Positions 16,100 to 36,246 of a DNA stretch of 64,000 nt are shown here, in pieces. Within the stretch, counting starts at the first letter, position 1. Every line of letters starts with the position of its first letter. Location of the stretch: positions 1,240,001-1,304,000 of the forward strand of contig OZ025785.1 of NCBI GenBank assembly GCA_964019425.1, written 5' to 3'. A program made the translations under genes and the position numbers. The notes beneath the pieces were generated by a model. It ran no database searches. It was not told the origin of the DNA and worked only from the letters and a program-made list of their open reading frames with translations. Source of the stretch: Flectonema sp. DT1601 (Eukaryota).

Positions 16100-16138
16100 G
16101 TGTGTATTCTTTAAATCAAATTATGAAAAAAGATAAAG

Positions 16139-16211
16139 TGGTCACAATGGGGCTCGAACCCATGGCCAATGGCTTATTAGACCAACGCTCTACCGACTGA
16201 GCTATGCGACC
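16139..16211 (-). tRNA. tRNA-Ile (anticodon AAT), copy 1
   Basis: Reverse complement GGTCGCATAGCTCAGTCGGTAGAGCGTTGGTCTAATAAGCCATTGGCCATGGGTTCGAGCCCCATTGTGACCA has an acceptor stem, D arm, CT-AAT-AA loop and GGTTCGAGCC T arm. Confidence 0.93.
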
Positions 16212-16599
16212 TCTGTTTTAAGAAAACCTTTTTCTTTTGAAGAAAACTTTTTATTTATAAAGAACTTCTAAAGAGAAACAAAAAGGTGTTTTTTATTTTT
16301 GCATTTAACAAGTATTGTAAGAACGAAAAAGAATGTTGGCAGCACACGTAAACCTCCTTTAGCTTTATCAGTCGGTTCACGGTTTCGTGCACAAACAAAA
16401 AATCACAGTGTTATATCATTATTTTCTGTATAGTTGAAGTTAAAGCCAATTCTTTTTTAAAAAACCTTCTCCCCGATACGTGTCAGGTTCCAATATTTTT
16501 TACGTCTTTTTTAATCAAAAAACGATTTTACGTAAAGCAATTTGGATGGCCCCAAGTCTTCTGAGTTACGAAACCTAAATCGGCTTCCGCCCGAAAAAG

Positions 16600-16672
16600 T
16601 GGTCACAATGGGGCTCGAACCCATGGCCAATGGCTTATTAGACCAACGCTCTACCGACTGAGCTATGCGACC
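16600..16672 (-). tRNA. tRNA-Ile (anticodon AAT), copy 2
   Basis: Identical 73-nt sequence to copy 1. Confidence 0.93.
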
Positions 16673-16975
16673 TCTGTTTTACGAGCTGCAACTTCGACAT
16701 GAAGTTTTTCGTTATTGTTCTTACCTTCTCCACATATTTACATATGTGATAAGTATAAGTCATATCTTACGATTGACAATTCCTCCCCATAAATAAATTT
16801 CTTTTTATTATTTTATTTTACACCTGCCTTACTAACTTGGGGAGAAAGAAAGGATGAACAATGGGCCTCTTATGAGGTGGGCAATTGCCCTGGACCCACA
16901 TTAAATGTACGCGTGTTTTGCGTCAGCCCGTTGCTGTAGAAAAAGAAGAGACAGTTTCAGGTAGTAATGAAAAAA

Positions 16976-17014
16976 AACCAACGATTCTAAAGCTACAGTT
17001 TCTGTACTTTATTG
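16976..17014 (+). ncRNA. Spliced-leader (mini-exon) sequence, retrocopied; not a complete SL RNA gene
   Basis: 39 nt, AACCAACGATTCTAAAGCTACAGTTTCTGTACTTTATTG. It ends in the euglenozoan SL 3' signature CAGTTTCTGTACTTTATTG and closely resembles the Diplonema SL as I recall it. It is not followed by a GT donor or SL intron. Confidence 0.88.
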
Positions 17015-17656
17015 TTTTTTCCCTCCCTCGCCCCATCCCCGTCAGCGAGTAGGAAAGCGCAGCTAGGAATTTTTCCACGCAAGCGGATCCCACAACCCGA
17101 CCACCCTTCCCCACGCTCACCCCATCCACCCTCCCCCACCCCAACAAAAGAAGAAAACGGCGGCAGCCACGTGACACACTCGTGTTCGTGTAGCGAAGCG
17201 TTTCGGCGACTTCGAAGACGACGACGACGACGACGACGTAGAAGAGACGGTGTATGTGACTGACCTTCTTCTTCCTTATTTATTTGTTTACTTTTGTTAA
17301 TTACTTCCTCTTAATTTCATTCCTCTCTTAGATTGTTGTTTATTTGCTTATTTATTTGTTTGTTTATTTGTCTGTTTATCTGTCTGTATATTCTGTTACT
17401 ATCTGTTATTTTGTTACATTTATCTGTAGTACATTTTTGTTATTGTTAAATTAAAACATCTTCTTCACAGTTTTTTCCCTCCCTCGCCCCATCCCCGTCA
17501 GCGAGTAGGAAAGCGCAGCTAGGAATTTTTCCACGCAAGCGGATCCCACAACCCGACCACCCTTCCCCACGCTCACCCCATCCACCCTCCCCCACCCCAA
17601 CAAAAGAAGAAAACGGCGGCAGCCACGTGACACACTCGTGTTCGTGTAGCGAAGCG
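17014..17656 (+). repeat. 187-bp direct repeat pair (17014-17200 and 17470-17656)
   Basis: Identical gttttttccctccctcgcc...gtgtagcgaagcg, offset 456. Copy 1 follows the SL; copy 2 follows TTCTTCACAG. Confidence 0.95.
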
Positions 17657-17718
17657 CTTAGCGCTTTAAAGTCTTTTAAGTCGCAGAAGTCGCCCCCGTC
17701 GCCCCCCGACCCCCACAG

Positions 17719-17772
17719 GGTATTGAACCCAGGTGGACCAGAAGACAGACGGTGACAAAAACCACTGCGCCA
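17719..17772 (-). promoter_or_regulatory. tRNA-like Pol III internal promoter (A box and B box)
   Basis: Minus strand TGGCGCAGTGG (A box, 17772-17762) and GGTTCAATACC (B box, 17729-17719), 32 nt apart; no complete cloverleaf seen. Confidence 0.6.
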
Positions 17773-18007
17773 AAGTATATTGTTGAAAAAAAAATTTTTT
17801 ATTGTTTATTATATATATTAATTAGGTCATATTTATTTAGAAGAATTTGGTATTACTTGTCGTTGTTTATTTAGAAAATACTAAGGAAGAAAGAGGAAGA
17901 AAAAAAAAAAAAAAAAAAAAAAGAAATTAGATTTTGCATAGGCATACTTGCAGAGGAGGAGATAAACGCGGGTCCTTCAGTAAGCTCTAGTACATCGGCG
18001 GGGTAGG

Positions 18008-18052
<45 letters not shown>

Positions 18053-18303
18053 CATCTATCTTCGGTCTACGAACGCTTTGAGTCGGCCAGCAGTCACAAA
18101 CGGACATTGAAGGCGCGGATAATTGTTGTTGCTGTGGAAACCTTGCTCTGCTGAAGAAGGAGTTGAAATTTTCCCCACCTGCATTCTGATTCGAGTTGTC
18201 TTCGAGAGTACTTTGCTTTGGTCAAAAAAAAGTTACTTATTCATCCAGCTCATACGTCCTTCTCATCTTTTCTGGAGACTGGACCGCTGGTGAACGCGCA
18301 AAC

Positions 18304-18600
18304 AGAACAAATTTTTTCTTTTGTTCTTCATTAAAACTACACTGAGACACGGTCTTCCGCAATACATCGCACGAACAGAACATATCCTTTCTTGTTCTCG
18401 TTTAAACACCGCTTTAAGACAGCGAAAAGAACATATCCTTTTTTTTGTTCTTGTTTAAACTCTGCTTTGATACACGGTCTTCCGCTAGTCAGCGCGCGAG
18501 AAGAACATATCTTTTCTTGTTCTCGTTTAAACTTTGCTTTTAAGACCTGCAAACAGAGCATATCTTTTTTTTGTTCCTGTTAAAACTCTTTTTTAAGACA
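18304..18600. repeat. Degenerate tandem repeat with internal palindrome AGAACA-N10/11-TGTTCT (about 5 copies, ~126-bp higher-order period)
   Basis: Recurrent agaacatatc(c/t)ttt...tgttct(c/t)gtttaaac...ctttaagac; acacggtcttccgc occurs twice about 125 bp apart. Confidence 0.75.
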
Positions 18601-18753
18601 AAGCGTTACGAATCAGCCTGCGGGAGGAGAAGGAAGAACTCTCTCACTAGCTTTGTTTGGTGCCCGTGGTGGTGACTACCATTCTGCGTCGGAACTGTAC
18701 GGGGGTGACCGCATAGACAGAAGAGTTCGGAAAGCGGAGGATACGCGAGCCAG

Positions 18754-18784
<31 letters not shown>

Positions 18785-18895
18785 ACTCCACACACACGTA
18801 CAGGGCTAACAAGGAGAAGAGCAGGTAAGTCGATTGTCTTTTTTCGGGTTCCATACACAAATCATCCACAGCGAAGAGAACGGAAAAGGAAGAGT

Positions 18896-18938
<43 letters not shown>

Positions 18939-18941
<3 letters not shown>

Positions 18942-21900
18942 AGAATGGAGAAAACAATGTTACTGTGTGGGTACGTGCTGCTGTGGGCACTACTAAGTGG
19001 AACGAGGGCGCAACAGACGTCCGGAGTGGGTAAGCAGAGGTTAGCCCCAGTGCCAGGCGGATGGCACACCCCTCTTTTCACAACGCTGGACAAAGGCCCA
19101 CTGTTTTCATCGCGCATCAGCCGACGCGTAACACGCCCGATCCCCCCGCACCCATTTATAACCCCCAACAGCTCAAACAGCCCCAACAATACGGCAAGCG
19201 GACGCGCTTTCCAACATGGACGAGAGGGGGTGTGGGTCCCGCGGAGGGGAACGGAAACGGCCGGGAACCGGGTGAGGCGAGACCACCCAAAGCCACCTCC
19301 AGACAAGGGAGGAAGGGAGCTCCTGAAGAGGGCGTCCCCGAAAGTGGCGTCCAAGGCGGCAAGGCGGCTGGAAAGGAGGAGGAGGAAGCTGCTGAAGGAA
19401 CGGCAGGAGAGGTGGGAGCGGTGGGCGGGAGAGTTGGAGAAGTTCCACGCCAGGCGAGAGAGGTTCCGCGCGGAGACAGAGAGGCCAAGGAAGAACAAGG
19501 CGGAGACACCGAGGAAGCGACGGGCAGGGCCCGAAAGGGACTGGACAAAGCCAGGAGGGCACAAGGCGGAGCCCAGACCATGGTATGCGAGGCCGTCAGA
19601 CCTGGCAGGAGGAGGGCAAAGCAAGGAGAGGACGAAGTGCCCGGTGGTGGGGTGCAGCGTCTGGGTGAGGGGTGACCTAGAGTACCACTTCAAACAACAC
19701 CTGAAGGGAGTGGTACCGGGGGAGGTAACGGCCCAGATGGCATCCGACAGACTCGGAAAGCAGATCTGCAAGGCCTGCGGGGAGCTGAGTACCGGATTGG
19801 TGCACCAGACAGTGAGGTGTCGGGAGATGTTGGACCTCAAGGGACGGCTGGGGGTAGCGACGGGACCCACGCCGGAACTGGCAAGCCTGAAGTGCGAGGG
19901 AGCAAAAGTATTCCGGGTGATTGGGGATGGGAATTGCCTGTTCAGGAGTGTGTGCCAACTCCTAGAGACGCCAGAGGGGTGGAAGGGCAGACATGGAGAG
20001 CTCCGCAGGAGAACGGCAGGATACCTGACCAAGAACAGGGAAAGGTTCGAGGTCTTCTTCCAGGACGCGGACGCATTCGGAGTATATGCGAGGGCGTTGG
20101 AAGAGGATGGATGCTGGGGCGATGCATTGGCCCTACAGGTCATGGCAGAGGACCTACAGTGCCGCTTCGTCGTCGTGGTGAGGACGGAAACGCTGGTGGT
20201 GGAAGGGCCATCGGACCCGAAGCGGACGCTGGTCTTGACCCTGCAAAACGGGTGCCACTACGACCCAGTGGAGGCATCCGAGGACTGCGTCGCGCGGCTG
20301 CTACAGAGCGCCCGGAGGTTGGAGTTAGTGTCGCCAGGCCCGCTGTCGCAAGCAGCAGGAGGCGAGCCGGCAGTGCTGCAGACAGCCTCCCGACAGGCCC
20401 AGCTGCACGAGTGCCCCCAAGCGGAGTGCCCGAAACACAAGGGAGGCTTCGAGGAGTGGGCGGAGCTCCTAAGACACGTGGACGAGCACGCATTCAGTGG
20501 CAACCCGCTGACGCATGGACAGTTGGCGAGGCTAGGCCTCCGGGAATGTCCGGTGTGCTGTGGGATCATCGGGCAGGACCAGCCGATGCATCCGGGGTGC
20601 AGTGAGAAACTGCAGAAGGTCCAACTGGGGGACGTGTACACGGCGTTCCGGAAGCGGGTGCTGGAGAGCCAGAGCTTCCCCTCTTTGGAGGAAATAGCCA
20701 GCAGGAGGAGGCCGATAGCGAAGAAGCTGCCGGTGCCCCTGTTGCACCATTTGGGGCGAGCACTCAAGCTGGCGCTTGATCTAGTCGTGGAGCGGAACGA
20801 TGAGTGGGCATGGAAGCTGCTCTTGATGCTCCCGACTTGTACACTGCGGAGGATACGGAGGGGGGGTAGGAGGTTGTCGACCAGCAATCTGACAGGGGCT
20901 GTCGACGACCTGCAGGCATGGATTCGGGGGGATTTTGAGGGACTGTGGAAAGCGGCGGCCCCCCGCAAGGCGACGGGAAGGCCAGCAGTGAAAGAGGCGG
21001 GGCAAAAAGGAAGGAACGACAGGGCCACGTCGCTAGCGAGGGAGGGTTGCCTGTCACAGGCGATCTCGGCCCTAGACGCGCCGCCGCCAGCAGAACGAAC
21101 CGAGAAGGTGCTGGAGCAGATGCGCACCCTACACCCGAGGGCGAGCGGACCCCCATCGGCCACGGCAGGGCAGGAGGTGCAGATAGCAGAGGTGGAGCTG
21201 CTAGCATGCCTACGCTCCTTCCACAGGGGGTCGAGTGGAGGGCCTTCGGGCCTCGCGCCGCAACACCTGAAGGACGTGGTGGAGCGGGGTGAGGTGCCGG
21301 GGCTGGTAGCCTCGATCACGGAGGTGGTGAGGATTCTGGCGAACGGGAGGGCGCCGCGGGAAGTAGCGCCGCTGCTGGCGGGGGCGAACCTGACGGCGCT
21401 GGAGAAAGAAGGGAAGCCGGGGGAGCACCGGCCAGTCGCGGTGGGGGAAACATGGAGGCGGCTGGTGGCGAAGATCCTGTGCGGGGCATACAGGTCCCAG
21501 GCGAGGAGCTCGTTGCTAGAAGTGAGACAACTGGGAGTAGCGGTGTCGGGGGGAGTGGAGGCGGCGGTGCACACCCTGCATGAGTTCCGCGCGGAGCACG
21601 CGCTCTCGTCACAGAAAGTGTTCGTGAAGATAGACTTCTCGAACGCCTTCAACTGCGTGAAGAGGGGGGCGTTCCTGGATTCGACGAGGGATACCCTGCT
21701 GGAGAGCTGGGTCAGCTGGTGTTACGGAGCGCCGACGTGGTTGCTGTTTGGGGACGAGAGGCTGAGCTCGGAGGAGGGCGCTCAGCAGGGGGATCCGTTG
21801 GGTCCCTTGCTGTTCTCGCTGGCAATCAAGCCGGCGCTGCAGAAGGTGTTGGAGGCGAAGCCGGAGTTGGCGTGCTTCTACCTGGACGATGGGCTGGTGG

Positions 21901-24900
21901 CGGGCACCCTGGAACAGGTAGACAAGGCCCTCCAAATCCTGCAGAAGGAGACGGCGGAGCTGGGGCTGACGCTGAGGCCGGACAAGTGCCAGACGCACGT
22001 GCTCGACTCAGCCCAGAACACCCTGCCCTTGGGGTGGGGGTTGGAAGGGATGAGACCCCCACTGTACAACGGGGACTTCCTGGGGGCACCGTTCGGGACG
22101 GAGGAACACTGCCAGGAGTTCGTCGACAGGAAGGTGGCGCAGCTGGAGAAGAAAGCGGAGCTGCTAGCAGACCTGCAGGACCGGCAGGTGGCCATGGTGC
22201 TCCTAAGGCAATGCATGGGCTTCTGCAAGGTGACCCACCTGATGCGATGCTGCACGCATGGGAAAATGGACACCTCGATGCGGAAGGTGGACGAGCTGAT
22301 GAGGTCCACGGCGAGCCGAGTGTTGGGCCTGACACTGGAGGGGCCAAAGTGGATGCAAGCACAACTGCCGACCCGGATGGGGGGATTGGGGCTGCGGTCA
22401 TGTGCAGAGCACAGGGGAGCAGCACTATTGGGATCCCTGGAATTAGTCCAAGGGGTGAGCAAGTCACTGTGGGAGGGGTTCAAGGGGGTGCTGATGCCAG
22501 CACTGAAGAAGGGGTTGAACCTCGCCCTCCCGGAGGAGCTAAGGATAGAAGAAGACGGGCCGGGGCCGAACCCCCAGAGGCTGTCCTCGGCGAAACTGGA
22601 CCAGGTCAAGAGAGACTGCCTGCTGGCGGGGGCGAATGACCCGCGCGATAAAGGGAGGCTGCTCTCCCTGCGCATGGATAAGGCGAGCGCATGGCTGCAA
22701 CAAGCAGATGAAGAGTGCGCGATGGACCCAGAGACGTTCAGGATCGCATGTGGGATGCGATTGGGCGCAGCGCTGTTCGCGGAAGGGGCAGTATGCAGGA
22801 TATGCTCAGGCCCACAGGATAGGCAGGGATACCATGCCTCAATCTGTATCAAAAACGGCCACGTGCACCAGCGACACGAGAGGGTGAAGGAGGAGTTCAT
22901 CTCCATCTTTAAGCAGGCGGGATTGCCGCTGCTGAGAGAACCCAGCCACCTACTGGGACCCAACAAGCAGAGACCGGGGGACTGGTACTGCCAAGAGGGG
23001 CTGAGGGAGGGGAGAGGCAGAGCCTTCGACATCACAGTGGTAAACCCGGGGAAAATTAAATTGTATAAAACCCCGGGGCAAGCCGCGAGAGAAGCAGAGT
23101 CCCTGAAAGGGAACAAGTACGCGGAGCAGTGCACGAAACACGGGATTAATTTCTCGACAATTGCGCTGGAAGCGTACGGAGGGATGGGACGGGAAGCAGT
23201 GGGAACCCTGAAGAAGTTGGTGCAGATCTGCGCAACGAACTCGACGGTGCCACACCGGGAGATCGCGGGGGAGATGGCGAGGAGGATCTCGACATCGGTG
23301 GTAGTGGCGACGGCGGAAGCACTGAGAGCGAGGGAGGCGTCGGTGGCGATGGACTCAGTGAACCCATTGCCAAGGACGAAACCGCCGCCCGAGATGACGG
23401 AGAAGCCGACATCACAAGAGAGAGAACCAAGACCGAGAGCGGAAACGGAAGAGATCCAGCAGCCGGAAGTAATGCGACAGTCGGCAGGACCGCCCCCGAC
23501 GATGAGAGGTTTGCCGAACATCGGGAACTCCTGCTACCTCAACGCGTCCGTACAGTGCCTGCTGAAGGGCACGGCACTGACACAAGTGCTGACGGGGAAG
23601 GAGGAAGTGGGGATGTCGGGCCTCCTGAGTGGAGTGGTCAAAGGGAGTGGGGAGTGCCTGGAGAAGCTGTCCGAGATGTTCGACCCGCTACAAGACAGGC
23701 GGCAGGGGGAGGTAGTAGGAACCCTGACGTCCATAGTAGACGCCCTGTTGGAGGAGAAGAAAGAGGTGTGCGAACCGTTGTTCTCGGCAGTACAGCTGAA
23801 ACAGCTGGTCTGCACGGGATGTGCGGACGCCTCCGGATCGACGGATGAGTTGACGCTGATCCCACTGTGTGGCCGTACACCACAAGTGAGGCTTCAGCCG
23901 ACGAAGGAGAGAGTCGAGCGGTCCTGCGAGAAGCTGTGCGGCAGCAATGAGGCCACGCTGGAAGAGAGTTTCGCCTCGCTCCCAAGCTCCTTGATCTTCC
24001 AGAGAGACAAGCAGGACACGCAAGGGTCCTTGGGATGGGAAGAGCGCTTCCAGGTGCAGGTCGGGGAGAGGGTGATGACGTACCAGCAAACGGGAGCGAT
24101 CGCACACCTCGGGAGTGACAACGCGGGGCATTACGTGTCATACACGTGGGACGGAGTAGGCTGGCAGAAGCAAGACGACAAGGCAATAAGCCAAGTGTCG
24201 ACAGAGGAGATCCACGGGACGAAACCAGTAGTAGTGGTCTACTCGAGGGTGGAGGGATCGACCCAAGAGGACGTCGGGGTGCCGGTGAGATGGATTCCGG
24301 TGGCGAACAAGGACCGGATGGAGGTACGCGAGGCACCGCCGTCGGAGGAGGACACCGCGGGGTACACGTCCAGGGAAGAGGCGGAGTGTGTCCTCCGGAC
24401 GCGAGTAGTAGGGGGGCAGACGCAGCGCAAGCTGCTCTTACTGGTATCGAGCGTCTGGAACGCGGAGATGGAGAAGCTGGGGGCGGCAGCATGCCTGATA
24501 CACATGGGAACGCTCGACAGGAGGTTCACGTGGTCGGGCTGCCTACCGACATGGGACGAAGCGACTGCGGAGTACGTGGCAGCGCTGCTAGGGCTCAACG
24601 CGATCAGGGAGAGATCGCAACTGCTGGGGGGTGAGACACAGATCGAGGTGGTCACACCGCAGCAGGGGTGGGGAGTCGAGCAGCAGGAGGCGCTGAAGTT
24701 GGTAGCGCTCCCGTCGGTGATAGAACACCAGGTGACGGAAAGCTCACGAGGGGTGGAGAACCTGGCCCTCTGGGAAGCGGAATCGGCGGCATGGGACGAG
24801 CCGGTGGAACTCTCGGAGGACGGGCTCGACTACTTGGTGATCGAGCTGGAGATGAATCTGGGGCTGTCCCAATTGAGGGGAAAGGCGGTGGAACCGGATG

Positions 24901-27900
24901 AATCCCAGTCGCTCCCAGGAGGGTCGACGGCATCAGGCGAAGACAGACCACGAGCCGAAGCGCCAGCCCAGGTGGAAGCGCAGACGACGGAAGCACAAGG
25001 AGCGGAAGCAGTAGGGCTGAGAGACGAGCCAGCACAGGAAGTGGGACAACCCGAGGAAAAAGAGCCCCCATCCCCCGACCCCCCGTCGAAGGAGGAGAAG
25101 CTGTATGCGGTGGCGGTGGGATGGAAACCGGGAGTGTATGCATCGTGGGAGGAGGCGAAGGCACAGACGGAAGGGTGCCCGAATGCGACACACCAGAGTT
25201 TCTCCTCCAGGAAGGAGGCGGACAGGTTCGTAGAGAGGTGGCAGCCGGAGACCAGGGAACCGACCCGGGCCACGGAGGGTGTCAGCCCACGTAAGTGGTA
25301 CGCAGTGGCGAGGGGCAGGGCGGTAGGCCTGTTCCAATGCTGGAACGAGGCGAACTCGATGGTGTCAGGCTACGCGGCGGCGAGACACAAGAGTTTCGCA
25401 AGCAAGGGGGAGGCGGAGGGATACCTCCGAACCCACCTGCTGGGGGAGGTGGTTGGCGAAGTAGGGACGAGGTACACCTTGGTGTACGCATGCGAGGAAG
25501 ACCCGGTAACGGGCCGTCTGGGGGCGGCGGCGAGCTGGTTGGACACACACCGTTTCGAGGTGTTGGGCACATGGTCAGCTGGCCTGCCAGCGGGAGACAC
25601 ACACTGGGGGCGATACTTCGCAGCCCTGGTGGGGCTGGTAGCGGCCAAGGCGTGTGGAGGCCCCGTCCCAGCGGAGGCATCCCTGCTGCTGCGAGGAAGC
25701 ACGACACACTGGTCGACGGACCAGAGAGAGGTGCTGGAGGAGGCGGAGTTGATGGGGAGGCGTACGACGCTGGTGGAGATGCCAGAGAGGATGAGAACAC
25801 ACGCGACGGAGGAGGCTGAAAAAGCGGCGAAGGAGGGCTCGACCTCAGTGACGGAAGCCGTGATGAAGGTTTTCACAGAGGGGGCAAAGAACTGCCTGGG
25901 ACACGGGACACAGACGGGTCCCTTCACGGTGCGGTGGGAGGGAAGACAACTGCGTCTGGAACCCCAGTACACAGAAGAGGGGACGGGATCGTCAGGCGGC
26001 CGAGAGTCGGTGGAAGGAGAAGACGCGAGGGTAGAGGGCCGAGACGAGCAGAGCCCGGTCCCAACCCCGAAGGGGGCCGTGCAAAGGGTAGAGGCGGGAG
26101 TCCTGGAGTTGAGCTCGGAAGGGTCGGAGGGAGATGACGATAGATCATCCTCCCCAGCGACAGGGCAGGACGAAGGGAACGGTTCCATGTCGGGAGGCTC
26201 CTTGGGGAGTCCAGGGACGTCGGACATGGAAGTAGAAGAACAGACGGACGAAAGGGACCAGTCGGTAGACCCGTCGGCAGCAGAGACCTCAGGCGAAAAC
26301 CATCACCTGGCCGAGGACCTGCAAGTCGAGAAGGGGGACGAGCTGGACGAGACGTCCCACCACTCAGGAGAGCCACCGTCGTCAGACGGCATGGACGGAG
26401 TGGAGGGGTTGGAGGACCTGGAAGACTCACAGTCGGAGATGGAAGTCGACGGAGAAAATGTGACGGAAGGGTCAGTAGTCCAGTACGTCGAGGAGACGTC
26501 AGAGGACGTGGTCCAGGTGGCAGAGTCGGACACAGAGGAGGAGGGATCGTCAGACTCCCAAATGACCATGACGGTCGATGAACAGGAATGGGAAGAGGGA
26601 GCGGCGCCCGAGGGGAACGCAGGTCAGATGGCCTGGATGCTGGGACTACACCCAGAAGGGGGGAACGCGGAAACACGACGGGAGGGCCAATCGGAGCCCC
26701 TTTCAAAGCTGGTGAACTCAGGCGAAACAAAACCAATGGCCGAGAGATCCAGTTTGGGGGCGAAGATGGGACCACGCGCAGTGGGTAGTGACGGGAGCGG
26801 GGAAGACGCAGAGAGATCGCCGGGCACGGTGTCGACACCGAGCACGAGAGGGAGGACGAAGTACAGAAAGGGAATGGAGGAGGAGAGGGAGGAGTGTGTG
26901 TCGCCGAAGACAAATACGGGAAGGGGACGCACGAGAGGCCGGAAGGCAAAGACGGGGGCAAAGGGGGCCGGAAAGGAGGACCCAAGTCCGCAGGTGTTGC
27001 AGGCGGAAATGGGAGAGTCCACCCCGAGCTCAGGTGAACGGCAGGCGAGGAGGAGGTACAGGAAGGGAGAAGAGAGGGAGAGGATAGAGGTTCTCTCCCC
27101 AGACCCGAGCAGGAAAGCGAAGAGGAAGAGACGCAAGCAGAAGGAACCGGAGCCAGTGGAGGGCACCACGAGGGAACAGGCGCCGCGGAGTTACAACAGG
27201 AAACCCACACTGCGTCGGGTAGGTAAGGGAGACACACCCGACACAATGGGGTACGCACACGGGCCCCCGGGCTCCCTGACCTCGTTCACGGACGCGGGCG
27301 TACGCCCGGAGCCGGCGGAGCGAGACGGACAAGGTGTGGCAGGAGTAGAGTTGGTCACAAGGTCGTCGTCACAGAGTGAGAAAAGCACCCAAGGAGAGAT
27401 GAGGGAGAGAGAAGGGGATCCAACACGAAGGGTCCTGGACTTCTCGTCGAAAGGGGGAAGGTGCTAGGGACTCCACGAAGGAGGTCTCAAGAGTCGAGGA
27501 AAAAACAGAGCCAAGACCCCAGAGCCAACCCAAAACACATGGTAGAGGACGAGGGAGAACAAGAGCGGGAGCGAGGTTAGAAACGTGACCAAAGCCCCCG
27601 CGAAGCAGGAGACACAACCTGCAACCAGACCCCCCCCAAAAAAAAAAACCCCGGTCAACGAGGCAAACTCGGACCAAAACATGCTTTTCACCCCCCCCCC
27701 AGGAAACACCGACCAGTGGAGCCAAAGGCCACACACATATTATAAAAATCAAAGGCCGCCCCCCAACCCAAGAAAAGGATGAAAAACTTTCAAGCGAAAA
27801 AACTTGACGTCCGTGCGCCCCAGAGATCAAAGGACGGACGACTCACACCCCCTTCTTTCGCCCCATTTTATTTACTGGTACAGCGACAAATGTAAAGCTG

Positions 27901-28198
27901 GGTAGACGACGAATTATTCTTTGTGCACAGAGACAAGGGATCCATGAGAACAAAGGATCAAGAGAAGAAGTGCACATTCCCCCTTCCCAAACCCAGAAAC
28001 ATGAGAACTCATTAAATTGAAGGGTCATGTCTTTTCAAGTCGAAAAATGCTTAAATGCAAAAGAAGACTGTCGTCCCCAGCTCGCGGGTTTTCCCTGTCG
28101 CTGTATGTCGAGACAACGATCAGAGTCAGAAGAAGGATTGTACTATTAACAGCATAATGAAAAAGGACAAAGAGAGTAGTTTCCATTTTATCTTCCCG

Positions 28199-28273
<75 letters not shown>
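18939..28273 (+). mobile_element. CRE/SLACS-like non-LTR retrotransposon (RT + restriction-like endonuclease) with OTU and USP domains; the 5' boundary may extend to 16682
   Basis: Single long GC-rich ORF, ~730-nt 3' UTR and an A75 tail (28199-28273) abutting tRNA-Ile upstream flank sequence. Confidence 0.9.
18945..27467 (+). CDS. Retrotransposon polyprotein: ZnF-OTU-ZnF-RT-CCHC/RLE endonuclease-USP-RNaseH-like-2x RNase H1 N-terminal (hybrid-binding)-RNaseH-like-acidic tail
   Basis: OTU: GDGNCLFRSV...WGD...HYD. RT: SSGGPSG, RPVAVGETWRRLVAK, QLGVAVSGG, KIDFSNAFN, GAQQGDPLGPLLF, YLDDG, QLPTRMGGLG. RLE: CRIC..HASIC, RHE, RPGD..FDITV, KGNKY, ALEAYGG. USP: GLPNIGNSCYLNASVQCL...HLG..AGHY..W..QDD. 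HBD: YAVAVGWKPGVYASWEEAKAQ and YAVARGRAVGLFQCW. The first ATG after the A40 tract is taken as the start. Confidence 0.9.
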   Translation: MEKTMLLCGYVLLWALLSGTRAQQTSGVGKQRLAPVPGGWHTPLFTTLDKGPLFSSRISRRVTRPIPPHPFITPNSSNSPNNTASGRAFQHGREGVWVPRRGTETAGNRVRRDHPKPPPDKGGRELLKRASPKVASKAARRLERRRRKLLKERQERWERWAGELEKFHARRERFRAETERPRKNKAETPRKRRAGPERDWTKPGGHKAEPRPWYARPSDLAGGGQSKERTKCPVVGCSVWVRGDLEYHFKQHLKGVVPGEVTAQMASDRLGKQICKACGELSTGLVHQTVRCREMLDLKGRLGVATGPTPELASLKCEGAKVFRVIGDGNCLFRSVCQLLETPEGWKGRHGELRRRTAGYLTKNRERFEVFFQDADAFGVYARALEEDGCWGDALALQVMAEDLQCRFVVVVRTETLVVEGPSDPKRTLVLTLQNGCHYDPVEASEDCVARLLQSARRLELVSPGPLSQAAGGEPAVLQTASRQAQLHECPQAECPKHKGGFEEWAELLRHVDEHAFSGNPLTHGQLARLGLRECPVCCGIIGQDQPMHPGCSEKLQKVQLGDVYTAFRKRVLESQSFPSLEEIASRRRPIAKKLPVPLLHHLGRALKLALDLVVERNDEWAWKLLLMLPTCTLRRIRRGGRRLSTSNLTGAVDDLQAWIRGDFEGLWKAAAPRKATGRPAVKEAGQKGRNDRATSLAREGCLSQAISALDAPPPAERTEKVLEQMRTLHPRASGPPSATAGQEVQIAEVELLACLRSFHRGSSGGPSGLAPQHLKDVVERGEVPGLVASITEVVRILANGRAPREVAPLLAGANLTALEKEGKPGEHRPVAVGETWRRLVAKILCGAYRSQARSSLLEVRQLGVAVSGGVEAAVHTLHEFRAEHALSSQKVFVKIDFSNAFNCVKRGAFLDSTRDTLLESWVSWCYGAPTWLLFGDERLSSEEGAQQGDPLGPLLFSLAIKPALQKVLEAKPELACFYLDDGLVAGTLEQVDKALQILQKETAELGLTLRPDKCQTHVLDSAQNTLPLGWGLEGMRPPLYNGDFLGAPFGTEEHCQEFVDRKVAQLEKKAELLADLQDRQVAMVLLRQCMGFCKVTHLMRCCTHGKMDTSMRKVDELMRSTASRVLGLTLEGPKWMQAQLPTRMGGLGLRSCAEHRGAALLGSLELVQGVSKSLWEGFKGVLMPALKKGLNLALPEELRIEEDGPGPNPQRLSSAKLDQVKRDCLLAGANDPRDKGRLLSLRMDKASAWLQQADEECAMDPETFRIACGMRLGAALFAEGAVCRICSGPQDRQGYHASICIKNGHVHQRHERVKEEFISIFKQAGLPLLREPSHLLGPNKQRPGDWYCQEGLREGRGRAFDITVVNPGKIKLYKTPGQAAREAESLKGNKYAEQCTKHGINFSTIALEAYGGMGREAVGTLKKLVQICATNSTVPHREIAGEMARRISTSVVVATAEALRAREASVAMDSVNPLPRTKPPPEMTEKPTSQEREPRPRAETEEIQQPEVMRQSAGPPPTMRGLPNIGNSCYLNASVQCLLKGTALTQVLTGKEEVGMSGLLSGVVKGSGECLEKLSEMFDPLQDRRQGEVVGTLTSIVDALLEEKKEVCEPLFSAVQLKQLVCTGCADASGSTDELTLIPLCGRTPQVRLQPTKERVERSCEKLCGSNEATLEESFASLPSSLIFQRDKQDTQGSLGWEERFQVQVGERVMTYQQTGAIAHLGSDNAGHYVSYTWDGVGWQKQDDKAISQVSTEEIHGTKPVVVVYSRVEGSTQEDVGVPVRWIPVANKDRMEVREAPPSEEDTAGYTSREEAECVLRTRVVGGQTQRKLLLLVSSVWNAEMEKLGAAACLIHMGTLDRRFTWSGCLPTWDEATAEYVAALLGLNAIRERSQLLGGETQIEVVTPQQGWGVEQQEALKLVALPSVIEHQVTESSRGVENLALWEAESAAWDEPVELSEDGLDYLVIELEMNLGLSQLRGKAVEPDESQSLPGGSTASGEDRPRAEAPAQVEAQTTEAQGAEAVGLRDEPAQEVGQPEEKEPPSPDPPSKEEKLYAVAVGWKPGVYASWEEAKAQTEGCPNATHQSFSSRKEADRFVERWQPETREPTRATEGVSPRKWYAVARGRAVGLFQCWNEANSMVSGYAAARHKSFASKGEAEGYLRTHLLGEVVGEVGTRYTLVYACEEDPVTGRLGAAASWLDTHRFEVLGTWSAGLPAGDTHWGRYFAALVGLVAAKACGGPVPAEASLLLRGSTTHWSTDQREVLEEAELMGRRTTLVEMPERMRTHATEEAEKAAKEGSTSVTEAVMKVFTEGAKNCLGHGTQTGPFTVRWEGRQLRLEPQYTEEGTGSSGGRESVEGEDARVEGRDEQSPVPTPKGAVQRVEAGVLELSSEGSEGDDDRSSSPATGQDEGNGSMSGGSLGSPGTSDMEVEEQTDERDQSVDPSAAETSGENHHLAEDLQVEKGDELDETSHHSGEPPSSDGMDGVEGLEDLEDSQSEMEVDGENVTEGSVVQYVEETSEDVVQVAESDTEEEGSSDSQMTMTVDEQEWEEGAAPEGNAGQMAWMLGLHPEGGNAETRREGQSEPLSKLVNSGETKPMAERSSLGAKMGPRAVGSDGSGEDAERSPGTVSTPSTRGRTKYRKGMEEEREECVSPKTNTGRGRTRGRKAKTGAKGAGKEDPSPQVLQAEMGESTPSSGERQARRRYRKGEERERIEVLSPDPSRKAKRKRRKQKEPEPVEGTTREQAPRSYNRKPTLRRVGKGDTPDTMGYAHGPPGSLTSFTDAGVRPEPAERDGQGVAGVELVTRSSSQSEKSTQGEMREREGDPTRRVLDFSSKGGRC

Positions 28274-28277
<4 letters not shown>

Positions 28278-28366
28278 TAAGAAAACTTTTATTTATAAAA
28301 AACTTTTCTTTTTTTTGGAGGAGACACGAGTCACGATCCAGGACCAACACTCAAAAAAAAAAAAAA

Positions 28367-31300
28367 GACTTCACGGCGGACACGGTCAGGAAGGAGATAA
28401 CAAGGTATTCTTTGGCAGGAGGTTCGCCATTGGCTTTCCTTAAACAGATCCTAAATAACCTGGCACTGAAGGAGTGCGCGGTGTGGGGGGGGACTCTGAG
28501 GAGCCTGTTCGAATCCAGATTGAAAGCGACACACAGGTGTGTATGTGGGTTTGTGAGGCAGGAGGTGCAGCTGAGTTTCATGGTCTTGGACCCAAAGACC
28601 AAGCCGGAGACAGCAAAGATCATCCTCTTAGGAGGGCCGCTCGAAGAAGAGACGAAGAGTCCAACGATCTGCGAGAGGTGTAGATCGCCAAACAGAGACT
28701 GCACTGTGCAGTGGAGATTCGCCGAGATGCCGCCGATCCTGTTCGCGAAGGAGAGAGTGGAACAGACGACGAGGGCCGCCTTTCAGGTAGAGACTGAAAG
28801 CGGGCCACGCAGTTATGTTTTAACGGGGAGTGTATGTGGCAATGGGAGACATGCAATGACAATGGTAAGAACGCCGAGGAACCGATGGGCATGTGTGAGC
28901 GACGAACGGGTGCGGAGCAAAGAAGGACCAGGCACGGGGCCGCTTTATTGGGTGTATACGAGAATCGAAGGAACGGAGGGTCTGTTAAGTGAGAAGCTCC
29001 TCTCCATAGACCACCGCATGCGGACAAGCCGAGCACTGAAGCCACGCCCAATGGACGATAAATCGGGACGAGCGAGGCGGTGGTACTTTGACCAAAAAAC
29101 ACAAGTAGCGAAGGAGGCGGTGGTAGAAAGGAGGGAAGAGCCAGTTCTGCATGTGGAAAAGCCGAGGGCAGAGCAACCACCATCCCCGTCGGAGCCGAAA
29201 CCTTTGGAGCCAGCATCAAACGGAGACATTGCGAAACTGACGCAAGAGACGAAGGAAGAGCCACCAGTACAAACTAACCGCTCCAAAGGGGACGGTGGGC
29301 AGCAGGCGCTGCCGCCGCCCCAGCTGCTCAAGTCTGAGGCGCGGAGTCCAGAGCGGGCAGAAGGCTCAACAACGGAACCAATGCGAATGGACGGGAGCGA
29401 CCAGACTAAAGACGTCACCGAACCGTCGGCGGGGATAGGATTGCACGCAGGAGGGAATTACTCGGACACATCCCTGTCGCTATCGGAACCGCCGCCTGTG
29501 AAACCCCACGGAAATGTCGAGACTTTGGAGCCAGCATCAAACGGAGACATTGCGAAGCTGACGCAGGAGACGAAGGAAGCGCCACCAGTACAAACTAACC
29601 GCTCCGAAGGGGACGGTGGGCAACAGGCGCCGCCGCCGCCCCAGCTGCTCAAGTCTGAGGCGCGGAGTCCAGAGCGGGCAGAAGGCTCAACAACGGAACC
29701 AATGCGAATGGACGGGAGCGACCAGACTAAAGACGTCACCGAACCGTCGGCGGGGATAGGATCGCACGCAGGAGGGAATTACTCGGACACATCCCTGTCG
29801 CTATCGGAACCGCCGCCTGTGAAACCCCACGAAAATGTCGAGCGGATGCCACAGGGACTGAGTGCGGTGCCATTGACGCTGTCAAAGCAACCGGAGGACC
29901 AGGATAGACGACAGACACCTCCGGCTCCCCAGCAGTCCGTATTAAAACTACAAGAAACAGGACAGGATTTGCTACAGGTCCCGGTGAAAGTAGCCGAGCG
30001 GTCGAAAGAACCGGAGGCGCCGCCTGCGGTAAAAGAAGAGTCGAACCTGCCGGCGAGGAACCTTTCACCACCGGTGTCTATTTTAACACCAAGCCAGGAC
30101 GTGCGGATGCCTACGCAGCCGTTGCGTGATCCCGAGCAGGGAGAACCGCATGCACTTGTGAAACCGACAGAGGGCGCACAGACGCAAGCGAATGGAGTGG
30201 TTTCAGAAGGAGCAGCCCCACAGAAGAGCAGAAGGGAGCCGACAGAACCTAAGACGTCTAGGGAGCAAGGTCTAAAACTGGGCTTTTACGCAACAGGACC
30301 GACCACGTGGGAGACAGCACCGTGGGAAGGAGAGCAAGACCCAGAGGAGGCCCAACAAAAGAGGGAGCCACTGGTACCACAGGAAGCAAACGCTCGGGAG
30401 GAAGACCGCGAGGGATATGACGAACCGACAGCGCGTGGAACAGACGGAGAAGCTGATGTACAGATGGAGAACTATGAGAGCCAGGAAGGGGCGAACTCCC
30501 AGGAACTAATGGAGGAAGTTACAGGGGAGATTGCCGAAACGAGCGAGCCGCTAGCGTATGGAATGGATGAAGGGGGTGATATACTCATGGAGGACTGTGA
30601 ACCGGAATCAAACCTTTTCTGCACGCGGGTAGCGCCAGCGGCCCCGTGTCTTGGTAGCAGAGGCCCGGACGTCACCGAACCGCAGAGCCAAGGGGGTGGG
30701 ACGAATATCCAGACGCGGACCACCTGGATGGAGGGCCTGACGAACCTCGGAGACTCGTGTTACCTGAACGCCACCTTGCAGGCACTACTGAAGGGGTCGC
30801 ATGTGGATTTCCAGCGGGCACGGAACACCCCTCACGTATGCGGGACGAGGTGTACAGTGTGCGCACTAGCACTGGTGCAGGGAGGTGGGTCGCAAGGAGA
30901 GATAACGAGGATCACAAGAGAATGGATGGGAAGAGGACAACAGGACGCCCACGGAGCCCTACTACACATAGTGTCGGACCTGCAGGAAAGAGCAAGACCA
31001 GGCGACCTCTTAGCAAACGCTTTCACATGCATGGTGGCAGTAGAACGCACGTGCATATGCTGTGGCGGAGGGAGCCAATCAATCGAGCTGGACTGCGGCC
31101 TGATACTGCGGGGATGGGACCTACAGTCGGCACTGGAGTCGACGACGATACCACAGGACTACGTGTGCGGACTGTGCGGTACGGGGTCTATGCAGGAGCG
31201 CAGGATTTTGATGGAGGCGCCGGAAACGATGATCGTATGCATTGTGAACGAGAATGCCACGAAAATGGCGCTGGGAGAACAAGTGTCGATGCGGAACAGC

Positions 31301-33650
31301 AAGATACAGGCCGACTATAGGGTGTCCGCTGTGGTGGTCCATCAGGGGTGTCTGGGATCGGGTCACTACACGTCTTTCACCCTATCACCGGGCGGCTGGA
31401 GGTACCAGGACGATGAGGTGGAGCGAGCAACAAGCTGGCGAGAGGTGCTGTCGTCTGTCCCTTACGTGCTATTCCTGCGAAGACAAGCTACAAAGGAGAT
31501 GTTCTGCGCAAATGAAGTTCCGATGATGCCACGACTAGCTCCACAGGTGGTCAGGGCAACGCCTCCAGAGCAGCACGGAATGGAAGGAAGGGATTATAGG
31601 CAAGTGAACAGTGAAATGCTCATACGGCCTGGAACGCAAAAGTCACGGACACAGTGTGAAGTACCACAATCAACACGGACCCAAAACCCACCGAACCTGC
31701 TAAGGACGGTGAAGACACTAGGTCGGTGCGAGAAGAAGAACGCCACGCGTGTCACAATACGAGCACACACAACGAAAGGCCAGAGGAGTCAACCGGCGAC
31801 GCGAATGGAGAGCAAGTTCAAGCTCTATGCTATCTCGAAGGGAAGGGGACGCACTACCATCGTGAATAGCTGGGCAGAGGCCGAGAAACAGACGAAGGGA
31901 CTCTCTTGCGCTGTTTATCAGGGCTTCAATAATGGAGAGGAGGCGGAGGCTTTCCTGAGAAGCACTGACCCAGAGTATAAGACAGCAGACAAGCCAGTAA
32001 AAGGCCCACGCAGAAATCGGCGGTACGCGGTCCCGTGTGGACGGCGTCCAGGAACGTACAGCACATGGAGTGAAGCCTCACTGCAAGTGCTACGCTGTCC
32101 AGGTGGGAAGGTGAAGAAGCTTTGCACGGACAGGGGAGCACGGGAGTACGTCGAAGAGCACAGAGCCACGAAAGGGTTAACGCAGCCAACACCACCACAT
32201 CCAGCTGTGTACCTTTTCTTAGGCAAAACCGGAAGGGCGTGCCTGGTGCGGAGTGGCGGAGGACCAGTGATGAAGAAGTGGCATGAGACCACAGGAGAGG
32301 AAAAAGACCCCATGCTGGCCGCACTAGAATTGGCACTGGAATGGGTCACAGGGAAGGGCCTCCTGGAGGGACCCGTGGAAGTGCAAGCGTACGCACCCTT
32401 GGAACAGTGGACGAGAGAACGGTGGGAGAAATTCGGGGCGATAAGTAGCGTGGTAAGGGCACGAGGACTAGTGTTGAGGCTGGCGGACCTACCTGTCGAA
32501 GTAAAGCACACAGCTTACCAGTGGGTGTGCCAAGTGATGACAGGCGAAACAGAGGTAGAACAGAAACCGAAGCCAGCGGAACCAGTCGAGGAGCCGAAGG
32601 AAGGATCGGCAGATCCCCACCATGGACGTGAGCCCCGAATAGGATGGCGCCCAAGTGCGATCCATGAGCCTGAGGAGGGAGTGCGAGGACAGTCGGAACC
32701 GGAAGCGGCTTTTAGAGATTCGAAGAAGAGGGCGAAGATCGAGCTAATAGAATGGCACTCTGAAAAGCCCATCTATGAGCTGTTCTACGCAGCAACACAG
32801 AGGGAGACGAGAACGTGTGTTGTAAGTGGCGGTGAAGTGATCCACATGTGGAGATTCCCCCTCAAGGAATGCTCGCCGAACCGCGAGGGTAAGGCGTTAG
32901 GGATCGGGATGGCGCAGCTGCTAAGTTACGGAGACGCAGTGAAGGAAATAGTGGCGTACGGCTCACTCGAGCACTCAGTAGAGTCACACCGACGATACAT
33001 CGAGGTCTCGCAGAGAATGGCGCATCGACTTGGATCAACGCTGAGGCTGGAGCGCCTGCCCCCCGAAGCCAGCGAAGAGGCCTACCGATGGGTGAGAGGT
33101 GAGGAAAAAGTCGGGAGGAGATTGTTAAAGTGGAAGGAGGAGAACGGTAAGGAAGTCTCACAGGCGGTAACAAGCACACACGAGAAAAATATTGTGCCTG
33201 AAACCACCACGGAGCCTACCATGGACCATGACTCAGACAAGATGACGTCAGACTCGAGCTCGATCTGCTCCCCACCGACACAAGAAGACCGCCCCCCAGT
33301 AGGGATGTGTGGGTGCGGAAAGGAGATACCGCAAGCAGCGATCAAGAATCCGGTGAAACACCCGACGAAGGGATGGTGTGATAGGTGTGGAGAGCGGATC
33401 GCGAAGGGAACGCGGGTAGTCATGTGCGTGAAGTGTGACTACGCTGAATGCTGCGGATTGTTGGAGAGATCGCGGCGTGGGAAAGAGAAGAGGAAAAGGA
33501 AATCACGGGGATCGCGATCGAAAAACGATGCCATGTGAGAAGCATGAAACGGAAAGTGAATGAACGGAAAAAATTAAATGTAAAGAAGTGAACTTGTAAA
33601 AAATGTAAAGAAGCAAACATGTTAAAAGAAAAATGAAAAAAAAAAAAAAG
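28367..33650 (+). mobile_element. 5'-truncated relative of the CRE-like element (C-terminal accessory region only; frame open to 33538)
   Basis: Starts abruptly after an A tract inside a USP-like domain (His box VCGNGRH..W..VSDE). Then a full USP (GLTNLGDSCYLNATLQAL, QQDA, GSGHY..W.YQDD), two RNase H1 N-terminal modules (YAISKGR..NSWAEAEKQ; YAVPCGRRPGTYSTWSEA), a terminal CDRC...CVKCDY zinc finger and an A-rich 3' UTR. No RT is present, so family membership is inferred from architecture. Confidence 0.75.
29202..29842 (+). repeat. 321-bp (107-aa) in-frame tandem duplication
   Basis: ctttggagccagcatcaaacgg at 29202 and 29523; the protein repeats LEPASNGDIAKLTQE...PPVKPH. Confidence 0.95.
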
Positions 33651-33954
33651 AAGAGTGAAAAGGAAGACAGAGTTGTATGTAAACTGTATGTAAATGTAAG
33701 AAGAAAGAAAAAACACGCTGGAAGTGGGAGTGCAACCATCAGCGCAAACACAACCACAAATATTGTTTTTTTTTTTTTTCCTTTTTCTTTTCTTCGCTTC
33801 GGCGACAGATATGGTAGGACCTAGAAAACCGGCCCAAAACTTGTGTTGCAGTTTATCTTTTTAGCGCACACTCATGTAACATAAGGATCGCTGGTTCCGA
33901 GGGTTTGCTCTCCTGCCATACTTGCCTCTCACCTCCCTCAAAAAAAAAAAAAAA

Positions 33955-34307: not shown

Positions 34308-34319
34308 TAAAACCTTCTT

Positions 34320-36142: not shown

Positions 36143-36215
36143 TGGTCACAATGGGGCTCGAACCCATGGCCAATGGCTTATTAGACCAACGCTCTACCGA
36201 CTGAGCTATGCGACC
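36143..36215 (-). tRNA. tRNA-Ile (anticodon AAT), copy 3
   Basis: Identical 73-nt sequence to copies 1 and 2. Confidence 0.93.
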
Positions 36216-36246
36216 TCTGTTTTAAGAAAACTTTTCTTTTTTTTGG

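What the first reader, a model, noticed from the sequence alone, without database searches (positions are those of the whole stretch)
18945..27467. CRE-like retrotransposon carrying two different deubiquitinases (OTU and USP) in one intact polyprotein
Seen: one uninterrupted ~2840-aa ORF. An OTU domain lies upstream of RT (Cys codon 19935, His codon 20256) and a USP/peptidase C19 domain downstream of the RLE endonuclease (Cys box codon 23532, GHY about 24127, W..QDD). Catalytic residues appear intact in both. Known: RT+RLE with these motifs marks CRE/SLACS/CZAR-type elements, and some transposons have captured Ulp1 or OTU proteases. I know of no non-LTR element with a USP, or with two DUB classes. 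Inference: the DUBs could protect the element RNP from proteasomal turnover, strip ubiquitin at the target site, or process the polyprotein.
Basis: partly seen in the sequence, partly recalled or inferred. Interest (0 to 1): 0.92.

Follow-up and report, generated by a model that had tools for sequence, protein, structure and literature searches.

The report
Retrotransposon carrying two ubiquitin-removing enzymes
A young, multi-copy jumping gene of a marine flagellate (likely a diplonemid) encodes one giant protein whose copying and cutting domains are flanked by two unrelated domains predicted to remove ubiquitin, a layout also found in Diplonema papillatum and likely used to trim and protect the element's own protein.

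Summary
Confirmed and extended. The 2840-aa ORF (18945-27467) is uninterrupted: zinc fingers, OTU (Pfam 2e-12), RT, restriction-like endonuclease, USP (Pfam 3e-11; predicted model matches USP folds), catalytic residues intact. Two RNase H1 hybrid-binding domains and two apparently dead RNase H-like domains follow. It is no one-off chimera: the cluster has 35 members, including a distinct full-length copy. D. papillatum KAJ9439003.1 has the same OTU-RT-RLE-USP order at about 32% identity, and sister families carry OTU-RT-RLE-OTU. Animal-type CRE elements separately carry USP2-like and USP35-like domains. The copy spans 16682-28273, with poly(A) and a 6-bp target duplication beside a tRNA-Ile gene in a host intron. 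It is not in a spliced-leader gene, but holds a spliced leader joined to a copy of the sequence that follows one of its own AG acceptors. A ubiquitin-tail-like [LM]xGG motif precedes the OTU module in 5 of 5 families versus 4 of 26 controls, suggesting leader self-cleavage (inferred). Transposons with Ulp1, OTU or Josephin are published; my searches found no non-LTR element with a USP or with two DUB classes. No activity was tested. New variant of a known kind.

The parts
16599..16672 (-). tRNA-Ile(AAT) gene; the element lies 3-9 bp off its 5' end, head to head
   Evidence: ARAGORN and Rfam
16676..16681 (+). Left copy of the 6-bp target-site duplication (GTTTTA)
   Evidence: Flank of this tRNA departs from the other two tRNA-Ile copies right after these bases
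16682..16975 (+). 5'-most segment inside the duplication, ending in A6; role unknown (promoter, or a template-jumped RNA)
   Evidence: Sequence; no credible Rfam match; folding z -2.0
16976..17014 (+). Complete 39-nt euglenozoan spliced-leader exon, with no SL intron after it
   Evidence: 37 of 39 identical to 'Euglenozoa 14' in PMC3795323
17015..17203 (+). R1: copy of the sequence that follows the AG at 17469-17470, joined directly to the SL; inferred cDNA of a trans-spliced element RNA
   Evidence: 190-nt match at 99.5% to R2
17204..17470 (+). Spacer with pyrimidine-rich tract ending in CAG, a predicted trans-splice acceptor
   Evidence: Sequence; X1 contig 17137-17545 bridges R1-spacer-R2 without differences
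17471..17659 (+). R2, second copy of the repeat
18825..18871 (+). GTAAGT...CAG stretch before the A40 run and ATG: second predicted acceptor or short intron
   Evidence: Sequence; splicing not shown
18945..27467 (+). ORF1, 2840 aa (P0001)
19602..19613 (+). LAGG, aa 220-223: ubiquitin-C-terminus-like motif closing the basic leader; predicted cleavage site
   Evidence: [LM]xGG at this boundary in 5 of 5 N-OTU families vs 4 of 26 heads without OTU
19638..19820 (+). First zinc-finger-like pair (aa 232-292)
   Evidence: Motif scan and alignment to D. papillatum relative
19890..20276 (+). OTU domain, Asp328/Cys331/His438
20412..20600 (+). Second zinc-finger-like pair (aa 490-552)
21180..22484 (+). 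Reverse transcriptase (YLDD aa 979-982)
22794..23324 (+). CCHC knuckle and restriction-like endonuclease (RH, PD-D, K motifs)
   Evidence: Motif positions; no Pfam model hit
23496..24260 (+). Compact USP/C19 domain, Asn1525/Cys1530/His1729/Asp1744, four finger cysteines kept
24426..24800 (+). RNase H-like domain 1, most catalytic acids missing (predicted inactive)
   Evidence: Atlas features 0.90-0.91 to RNase H clusters; similar to domain 2, z 11; no Pfam or PDB sequence hit
25098..25436 (+). Two RNase H1 hybrid-binding (Cauli_VI) domains
25470..25859 (+). RNase H-like domain 2, catalytic acids missing (predicted inactive)
25962..27464 (+). Acidic then basic low-hydrophobicity tail, likely disordered
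   Evidence: Composition
27468..28273 (+). 3' UTR and poly(A) of 75 (28199-28273)
28274..28279 (+). Right copy of the target duplication, followed by the tRNA-Ile upstream flank
   Evidence: 13-mer found only here and beside the other two tRNA-Ile genes; 0 of 100 shuffles reach 3 matches
28366..33538 (+). 5'-truncated sister element: partial USP, long linker, intact USP (30734-31474), 2 x Cauli_VI, two RNase H-like domains; no RT left
16100..41761 (+). 25.7-kb GT-AG intron of a host CNNM gene (12809-42062) that holds all of the above in sense orientation
   Evidence: Joining at these sites gives an open 619-aa frame; CNNM Pfam hit; no RNA evidence

Best explanation
This is an intact, recently copied CRE-clade non-LTR retrotransposon, likely of a diplonemid, whose single protein carries two predicted deubiquitinases around the RT-endonuclease core: the OTU likely cuts its own chain after a ubiquitin-like LAGG to shed the leader, and the USP likely strips ubiquitin from the element's own protein-RNA complex so that it survives long enough to insert. 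Shown: the ORF, domains, catalytic residues, copies, poly(A), target duplication, and the same domain order in D. papillatum. Inferred from family knowledge: target-primed reverse transcription by RT and RLE. Inferred from sequence: transcription by read-through in the host intron, with SL trans-splicing at the element's own AG. Inferred and untested: both protease activities and their substrates; binding of the RNA:cDNA hybrid by the two hybrid-binding domains without cutting, since both RNase H folds look dead.
For: Domains and residues. Copies: 35 cluster members, 15 listed; 2 hold OTU+RT+RLE+USP (P0009 with 15 differences; P0017 identical, on a 43.6-kb contig), 13 of 15 end at the same C-terminus. 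Conservation: D. papillatum KAJ9439003.1 has OTU, RT and UCH (E 9e-4, 4e-21, 1e-7) at 31.6% identity over OTU-RLE and 21.6% over the USP, with Cys, His and Asp kept. 10 of 10 aligned OTU domains keep Cys and His. Sister families fill the C-terminal slot with a second OTU (P0287, P0317), so the slot is held by a DUB of either class. 12 of 19 relatives with a tail of 150 aa or more after the RLE carry a DUB there. [LM]xGG at the leader boundary in 5 of 5 vs 4 of 26, Fisher p 7e-4; no such motif within 400 aa before 13 of 14 C-terminal DUBs. SL joined exactly where the AG acceptor would join it.
Against: No activity, expression or substrate data. The LxGG motif was defined after looking, and the five families are kin, so the p value overstates. 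The 12 of 19 count is inflated because the query contained the USP, and one of the 8 USP calls (P0004) is weak. Most relatives have no DUB: 8 OTU and 8 USP among 260 hits, 0 of 80 metagenome loci (mostly short), so DUBs are not needed for CRE transposition in general. This USP has RQGE where USPs have QQD, and the D. papillatum USP lacks the usual Asn five residues before the Cys, so activity on ubiquitin may be weak or altered. The RNase H-like calls rest on language-model features and one shuffle test; similarity to the window's own Ingi-type RNase H was marginal for 1 of 8 pairs.
Confidence: 0.5

Rival explanations
1. The DUBs act in trans at the insertion site: they would remove ubiquitin marks from histones or repair factors at the nicked DNA, damping or steering the damage response while the cDNA is joined.
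For: Both domains ride on the protein that binds the target; the hybrid-binding domains beside the USP would hold it at the RNA:cDNA hybrid. Some animal-type RT-USP relatives carry a PHD finger. PMC2836005 proposes a repair-related role for transposon OTU/Ulp1 domains (passages).
Against: Does not explain the LxGG motif. Captured USPs resemble different host subfamilies (USP2-like E 3e-91, USP35-like E 2e-47), which fits a need for generic activity better than a specific chromatin substrate.
Confidence: 0.25
2. Both domains only shield the polyprotein from the proteasome; nothing is cleaved at LAGG and the motif is chance or a binding site.
For: Long low-hydrophobicity tail and leader; OTU and USP seem interchangeable in the C-terminal slot; GG motifs occur by chance in 0.1-21% of 120-aa windows of these proteins.
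Against: The motif sits at the same boundary in five families at 30-40% identity whose leaders are otherwise unlike.
Confidence: 0.15
3. The USP (and perhaps the OTU) is neutral cargo picked up from host mRNA by a promiscuous RT, like the dead RNase H domains, with no role in transposition.
For: The element does capture RNA pieces (SL-R1, RNase H1 parts). Other CRE tails hold unrelated domains such as MLLE. The sister element's first USP is partial, and its His box is degenerate.
Against: Cys, His and Asp survive at 22-27% identity in three diplonemid-type USPs while RNase H acids are lost.
Confidence: 0.08
4. A one-off chimera or misassembly of a CRE element with a host USP gene.
For: None found; no single public contig spans the whole stretch in the two runs laid, which the tool says proves nothing.
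Against: Distinct full-length copy P0009, the sister element next door, the relative P0145 (RLE 54-59% identical, USP Cys box downstream) and D. papillatum KAJ9439003.1 and KAJ9464156.1.
Confidence: 0.02

Closest known systems
Trypanosomatid CRE clade (CRE1, CRE2, SLACS, CZAR)
   Same: Single ORF, N-terminal zinc fingers, RT, C-terminal RLE, poly(A), TSD (features as in PMC12278014, passages); D. papillatum relatives are auto-named 'SLACS 132 kDa protein'.
   Different: Not inserted in an SL RNA gene; OTU, USP, hybrid-binding and RNase H-like domains added; 'OTU', 'protease' and 'peptidase' occur 0 times in that survey's main text.
NeSL and Utopia-1_TSP (Ulp1 protease) and oomycete Utopia (RNase H)
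   Same: RLE-type non-LTR elements with a captured ubiquitin-like-protein protease or RNase H (PMC4640811, passages).
   Different: One Ulp1 at the N-terminus, other clade; here two DUB classes flank the core and the RNase H folds are C-terminal and look dead.
Dualen/RandI-type ORF2p with Josephin and a Symbiodinium ORF2p with OTU
   Same: Non-LTR RT fused to an N-terminal DUB (PMC13405545, passages).
   Different: One DUB class each as described; no USP; mentioned in passing.
Ginger1, Helitron, Mutator and a Trichomonas transposase with peptidase C19
   Same: Mobile-element proteins with OTU, Ulp1 or C19 domains (PMC2836005, passages).
   Different: DNA transposons; that paper says a Ginger1 has OTU or Ulp1 but not both.
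Unnamed animal-type CRE proteins with C-terminal USP (P0264, P0225, P0245, P0223, P0298, P0057)
   Same: RT-RLE-USP in one predicted protein.
   Different: Separate RT branch that holds named lepidopteran proteins; host-like USP2 or USP35 domains; no OTU; found here, not in print to my searches.

Membership tests
CRE clade (broad) | Single ORF with RT and C-terminal CCHC + restriction-like endonuclease | tested here: met
CRE clade (broad) | One or two N-terminal zinc-finger-like motifs | tested here: met
   aa 232-292 and 490-552, aligned with a D. papillatum relative
CRE clade (broad) | 3' poly(A) and target-site duplication | tested here: met
   A75 at 28199-28273; GTTTTA at 16676 and 28274
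CRE clade (broad) | RT groups with reference CRE1/SLACS/CZAR/Cnl1/MoTeR sequences | tested here: inconclusive
   No reference sequences were available from the tools; the RT groups weakly (SH-aLRT 81; FastTree 0.91) with D. papillatum proteins auto-named SLACS
SL-gene-specific CRE (SLACS, CZAR, CRE1/2) | Insertion inside the SL RNA gene, with SL sequence duplicated at the ends | tested here: not met
   Only one exact SL match in the window, inside the element; flanks are tRNA-Ile upstream sequence
OTU deubiquitinases | Pfam PF02338 above cut-off; Cys-His with flanking Asp | tested here: met
   48.2 bits vs 23.3; D328/C331/H438/D440 aligned to OTUD3
OTU deubiquitinases | Isopeptidase activity on ubiquitin | not testable with these tools
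   needs assay
USP / peptidase C19 | Pfam PF00443 above cut-off; Cys, His, Asp boxes; palm-thumb-fingers fold | tested here: met
   44 bits vs 23.9; model matches USP36/46/35
USP / peptidase C19 | QQD-type box for ubiquitin tail binding | tested here: inconclusive
   RQGE here, QQD in the sister element, QHD in D. papillatum
USP / peptidase C19 | Isopeptidase activity on ubiquitin | not testable with these tools
   needs assay
RNase H1 | N-terminal hybrid-binding domain | tested here: met
   two copies
RNase H1 | D-E-D-D catalytic acids | tested here: not met
   mostly replaced in both RNase H-like domains when aligned to the window's Ingi-type RNase H (weak alignment)
tRNA-targeting RLE elements (NeSL-1_TV, LIN15/25_SM in PMC4640811) | Most copies at the same tRNA position | tested here: inconclusive
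   This copy is beside tRNA-Ile; none of 7 'before' loose ends in public contigs shows that flank, several of them spurious

The most novel reading that the evidence does not exclude
CRE retrotransposons across eukaryotes repeatedly recruit deubiquitinases into a slot behind the endonuclease (USP2-like, USP35-like, a diplonemid-type compact USP, or a second OTU), and a diplonemid lineage adds an OTU that matures the polyprotein at a ubiquitin-mimic LxGG site, as viral papain-like proteases do. Ubiquitin-dependent destruction would then be a general, so far unrecognised restriction on target-primed retrotransposition, which these elements counter with their own enzymes while also carrying their own trans-splice acceptors.
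Probability: 0.3. Interest if true: 0.85.

Novelty: new variant of a known kind. Interest (0 to 1): 0.68.

Why it matters
Captured ubiquitin/SUMO proteases in transposons have been noted since at least 2010 with only a guess at their role (PMC2836005). This family makes the question testable: two compact, intact DUB domains of different classes in one young element, a predicted self-cleavage site, natural variants with OTU+USP, OTU+OTU, USP only or none, and a relative in D. papillatum, the sequenced model diplonemid. If the DUBs raise insertion rates, it points to ubiquitin as a host restriction on target-primed reverse transcription, relevant to R2-type gene-insertion tools. It also shows that proteins auto-annotated 'SLACS' in diplonemids are a different, larger kind of element.

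Tried and rejected
No whole genome is held for the window, so copy flanks could not be read directly. Sequencing runs: no RNA holder listed; two low-share runs, contigs only; depth not used. Strict tRNA targeting: not supported by loose ends, not excluded. The sister element P0002 found no relatives of 1004-3198 aa. Single-sequence fold of the USP failed (pLDDT 38). No OTU or USP in 80 metagenome loci. Donor of the USP: compact viral-contig USPs match at 21-26% over the domain, but trees are unresolved with long branches; no donor is claimed. One origin of all USP-bearing elements: strict RT monophyly is rejected (p-AU 9e-5), but the window's RT as sister of the whole animal-type branch is not (p-AU 0.54), and USP monophyly against viral rows is not rejected (p-AU 0.40). 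Independent capture rests mainly on different host-subfamily matches. No 2A-like NPGP motif. No ribozyme or other Rfam family in the 5' region. The lysine run at the start of ORF 28055 is the first element's poly(A) read in frame, not protein. No earlier findings. Two wanted papers (Kojima 2020 review; Kojima and Fujiwara 2005) are not held and Repbase cannot be searched, so the layout could be catalogued there. No complex prediction was run.


Full report
Observation. The frame 18945-27467 is open for 2840 codons in a block of 59-66% GC within a roughly 42% GC window. Pfam gives OTU (327-413, E 1.9e-12), RVT_1 (821-1019), UCH (1521-1766, E 2.7e-11) and two Cauli_VI domains, all above curated cut-offs. 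The OTU aligns over its length to OTUD3. The USP is compact (about 250 aa), keeps the Cys, His and Asp boxes and four finger cysteines, and its 5-sequence model (pLDDT 74) matches solved USPs at E about 1e-16; three of the five rows were host-like USPs, so the model leans that way. A single-sequence fold failed.

More domains. The Cauli_VI pair matches the hybrid-binding domain of human and yeast RNase H1. The segments on either side (aa 1828-1952, 2176-2305) score 0.90-0.91 to RNase H clusters in the Atlas (one source of evidence, modest shared-feature counts) and resemble each other (z 11). They have no Pfam or PDB sequence hit and lack most catalytic acids in a weak alignment. I read them as dead RNase H folds.

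Ends and setting. A 75-base poly(A) at 28199-28273 is followed by a 13-mer that occurs only there and beside two of the three tRNA-Ile genes (0 of 100 shuffles). The third tRNA-Ile (16599-16672, minus) has the same flank up to GTTTTA and then diverges. So the insertion spans 16682-28273 with a 6-bp duplication 3-9 bp from the tRNA's 5' end. Everything from 16100 to 41761 reads as one GT-AG intron of a CNNM gene in the same orientation (no RNA check); PMC10161547 reports transposons inside Diplonema introns (passages). Whether the family prefers tRNA genes is open: none of 7 upstream loose ends in two low-share public runs shows this flank, and several are short chance matches.

Spliced leader. 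16976-17014 is a whole SL exon, 37 of 39 identical to 'Euglenozoa 14' in PMC3795323 (table passage; the table names no species, and my link of this type to Diplonema is recalled). It is followed not by an SL intron but by 189 bases that recur at 17471-17659 directly behind a pyrimidine tract and CAG. This is what a reverse-transcribed, trans-spliced element RNA would leave (inference). An X2 contig shows the acceptor region duplicated in another copy, a weak hint that tandem acceptors replace the one lost at each round. With cis-introns and D. papillatum best hits, the host is likely a diplonemid.

Copies. The protein's 90% cluster has 35 members; 15 were listed. Of these 15, 2 are full length with both DUBs: P0009, 15 substitutions; P0017, identical, on a contig shorter than the window. 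Two start in or before the RT, and 13 end at the same C-terminus, as 5'-truncated non-LTR copies would, although stops could also explain short members. P0010 may be this very locus. A 5'-truncated sister element follows at 28366-33538 with an intact USP (26% identical) and the same Cauli_VI pair.

Relatives. Among 260 distinct hits from two searches, home-built profiles found 8 with OTU and 8 with USP (one weak), none with both. Of 19 hits with 150 aa or more after the RLE, 12 carry a DUB there, a share inflated by the USP in the query. Cluster look-ups changed the picture: D. papillatum KAJ9439003.1 (3379 aa) has OTU (E 9e-4, below cut-off), RT and a full UCH (E 1e-7, above cut-off) in the same order, and KAJ9464156.1 has RT and UCH. 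Identity to the window protein is 31.6% over OTU-RLE and 21.6% over the USP, with catalytic residues kept. These are gene models and may include splicing. Two other families read OTU-RT-RLE-OTU. In a 214-row FastTree and a 39-row IQ-TREE of the RT (near-duplicates dropped, rows under 75% coverage left out, among them P0004 and P0145), the window's RT falls, with weak support, with these OTU families. Six other RT-RLE-USP proteins fall in a well-separated branch with named lepidopteran proteins; two of three tested match different host subfamilies strongly (USP2 E 3e-91, USP35 E 2e-47; the third has no close solved relative). Strict monophyly of USP bearers is rejected (p-AU 9e-5), a sister position of the window's RT to that whole branch is not (0.54). 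Repeated capture is likely, not proven. None of 80 metagenome loci had either domain.

A processing clue. In 5 of 5 families with an N-terminal OTU and upstream sequence, [LM]xGG closes an unconserved leader: 8-12 residues before the first zinc finger in two, 32-38 residues before the OTU Cys in three. It occurs anywhere in 4 of 26 long heads without OTU. Ubiquitin ends in LRGG and viral papain-like proteases cut at LxGG (established knowledge, recalled). The motif was defined after looking and the families are kin, so this is a lead. No such motif precedes 13 of 14 C-terminal DUBs, so the USP is unlikely to cut itself free.

Mechanism. Most likely: read-through transcription and SL trans-splicing (inferred); OTU removes the leader (inferred, about 0.4); RT and RLE insert by target-primed reverse transcription (family knowledge); the USP keeps the large, partly disordered complex from proteasomal removal (inferred); hybrid-binding domains hold the RNA:cDNA hybrid (inferred). 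Overall 0.5 for this functional reading, above 0.9 for the identity of the element. Rivals: chromatin or repair editing at the target (0.25), pure shielding without cleavage (0.15), neutral cargo (0.08), artefact (0.02).

What is known. Ulp1 in NeSL/Utopia (PMC4640811, passages); Josephin and OTU on non-LTR ORF2p (PMC13405545, passages); OTU, Ulp1 and one C19 on DNA transposases (PMC2836005, passages). Trypanosomatid CRE elements are described without proteases (PMC12278014, passages); PMC12477816 gave nothing relevant (one passage). D. papillatum SLACS-like genes are counted, 745 in one orthogroup, without domain analysis in what I saw (PMC10161547 passages and 7 supplement files searched for four terms). 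Searches for a USP or two DUB classes in a non-LTR element returned 0, 1, 0, 2 and 2 papers and a broad list of 1,682 with 20 shown; none that I saw reports it. Searches were seen as listings. Repbase, subscription journals and two wanted papers were out of reach.

Verdict. Real, intact and lineage-wide; a CRE-clade element but not an SL-gene-specific one; new variant of a known kind; interest 0.68. The surprise is smaller than 'unique locus' but broader: a recurring DUB slot in CRE elements with a directly testable cleavage site.

Noticed in passing
window 28319-33650: 5'-truncated sister element with a partial and a complete USP, a 321-bp internal duplication (29202-29842), two hybrid-binding domains and a C-terminal Cys cluster; preceded by a 33-base piece with its own A14; it starts about 40 bp further into the same tRNA-Ile upstream flank.
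   Followed up: partly
window 33946-41200: Several broken Ingi/L1Tc-like RT-RNase H copies on both strands; one ends about 35 bp upstream of the tRNA-Ile at 36142-36215, so tRNA-Ile flanks in this intron collect two kinds of LINE.
   Followed up: partly
window 16100-41761: 25.7-kb intron of a CNNM gene holding three tRNA-Ile genes and all the elements; joining the exons gives an open 619-aa frame.
   Followed up: yes
window 18945-19010: The ORF begins with a signal-peptide-like stretch; leaders of three related families hold hydrophobic segments, as do 7 of 26 control heads. Unexplained.
   Followed up: partly
window 18298-18600: 2.3 copies of a 125-bp repeat in the element's 5' region; CRE elements are described with internal repeat regions.
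   Followed up: no
window 1171-8308: Three tandem 745-aa ORFs at 2450-bp spacing; the first, the only one scanned, is an adenylate/guanylate cyclase.
   Followed up: no
P0264, P0225, P0245, P0223, P0298, P0057: Animal-type CRE proteins with C-terminal host-like USP domains, some with a PHD finger; apparently unreported and worth a study of their own.
   Followed up: partly
P0179, P0172, P0163, P0167, P0029, P0226: Other CRE-type proteins with captured MLLE, Prim-Pol, weak Ulp1 or an independent N-terminal OTU domain.
   Followed up: no
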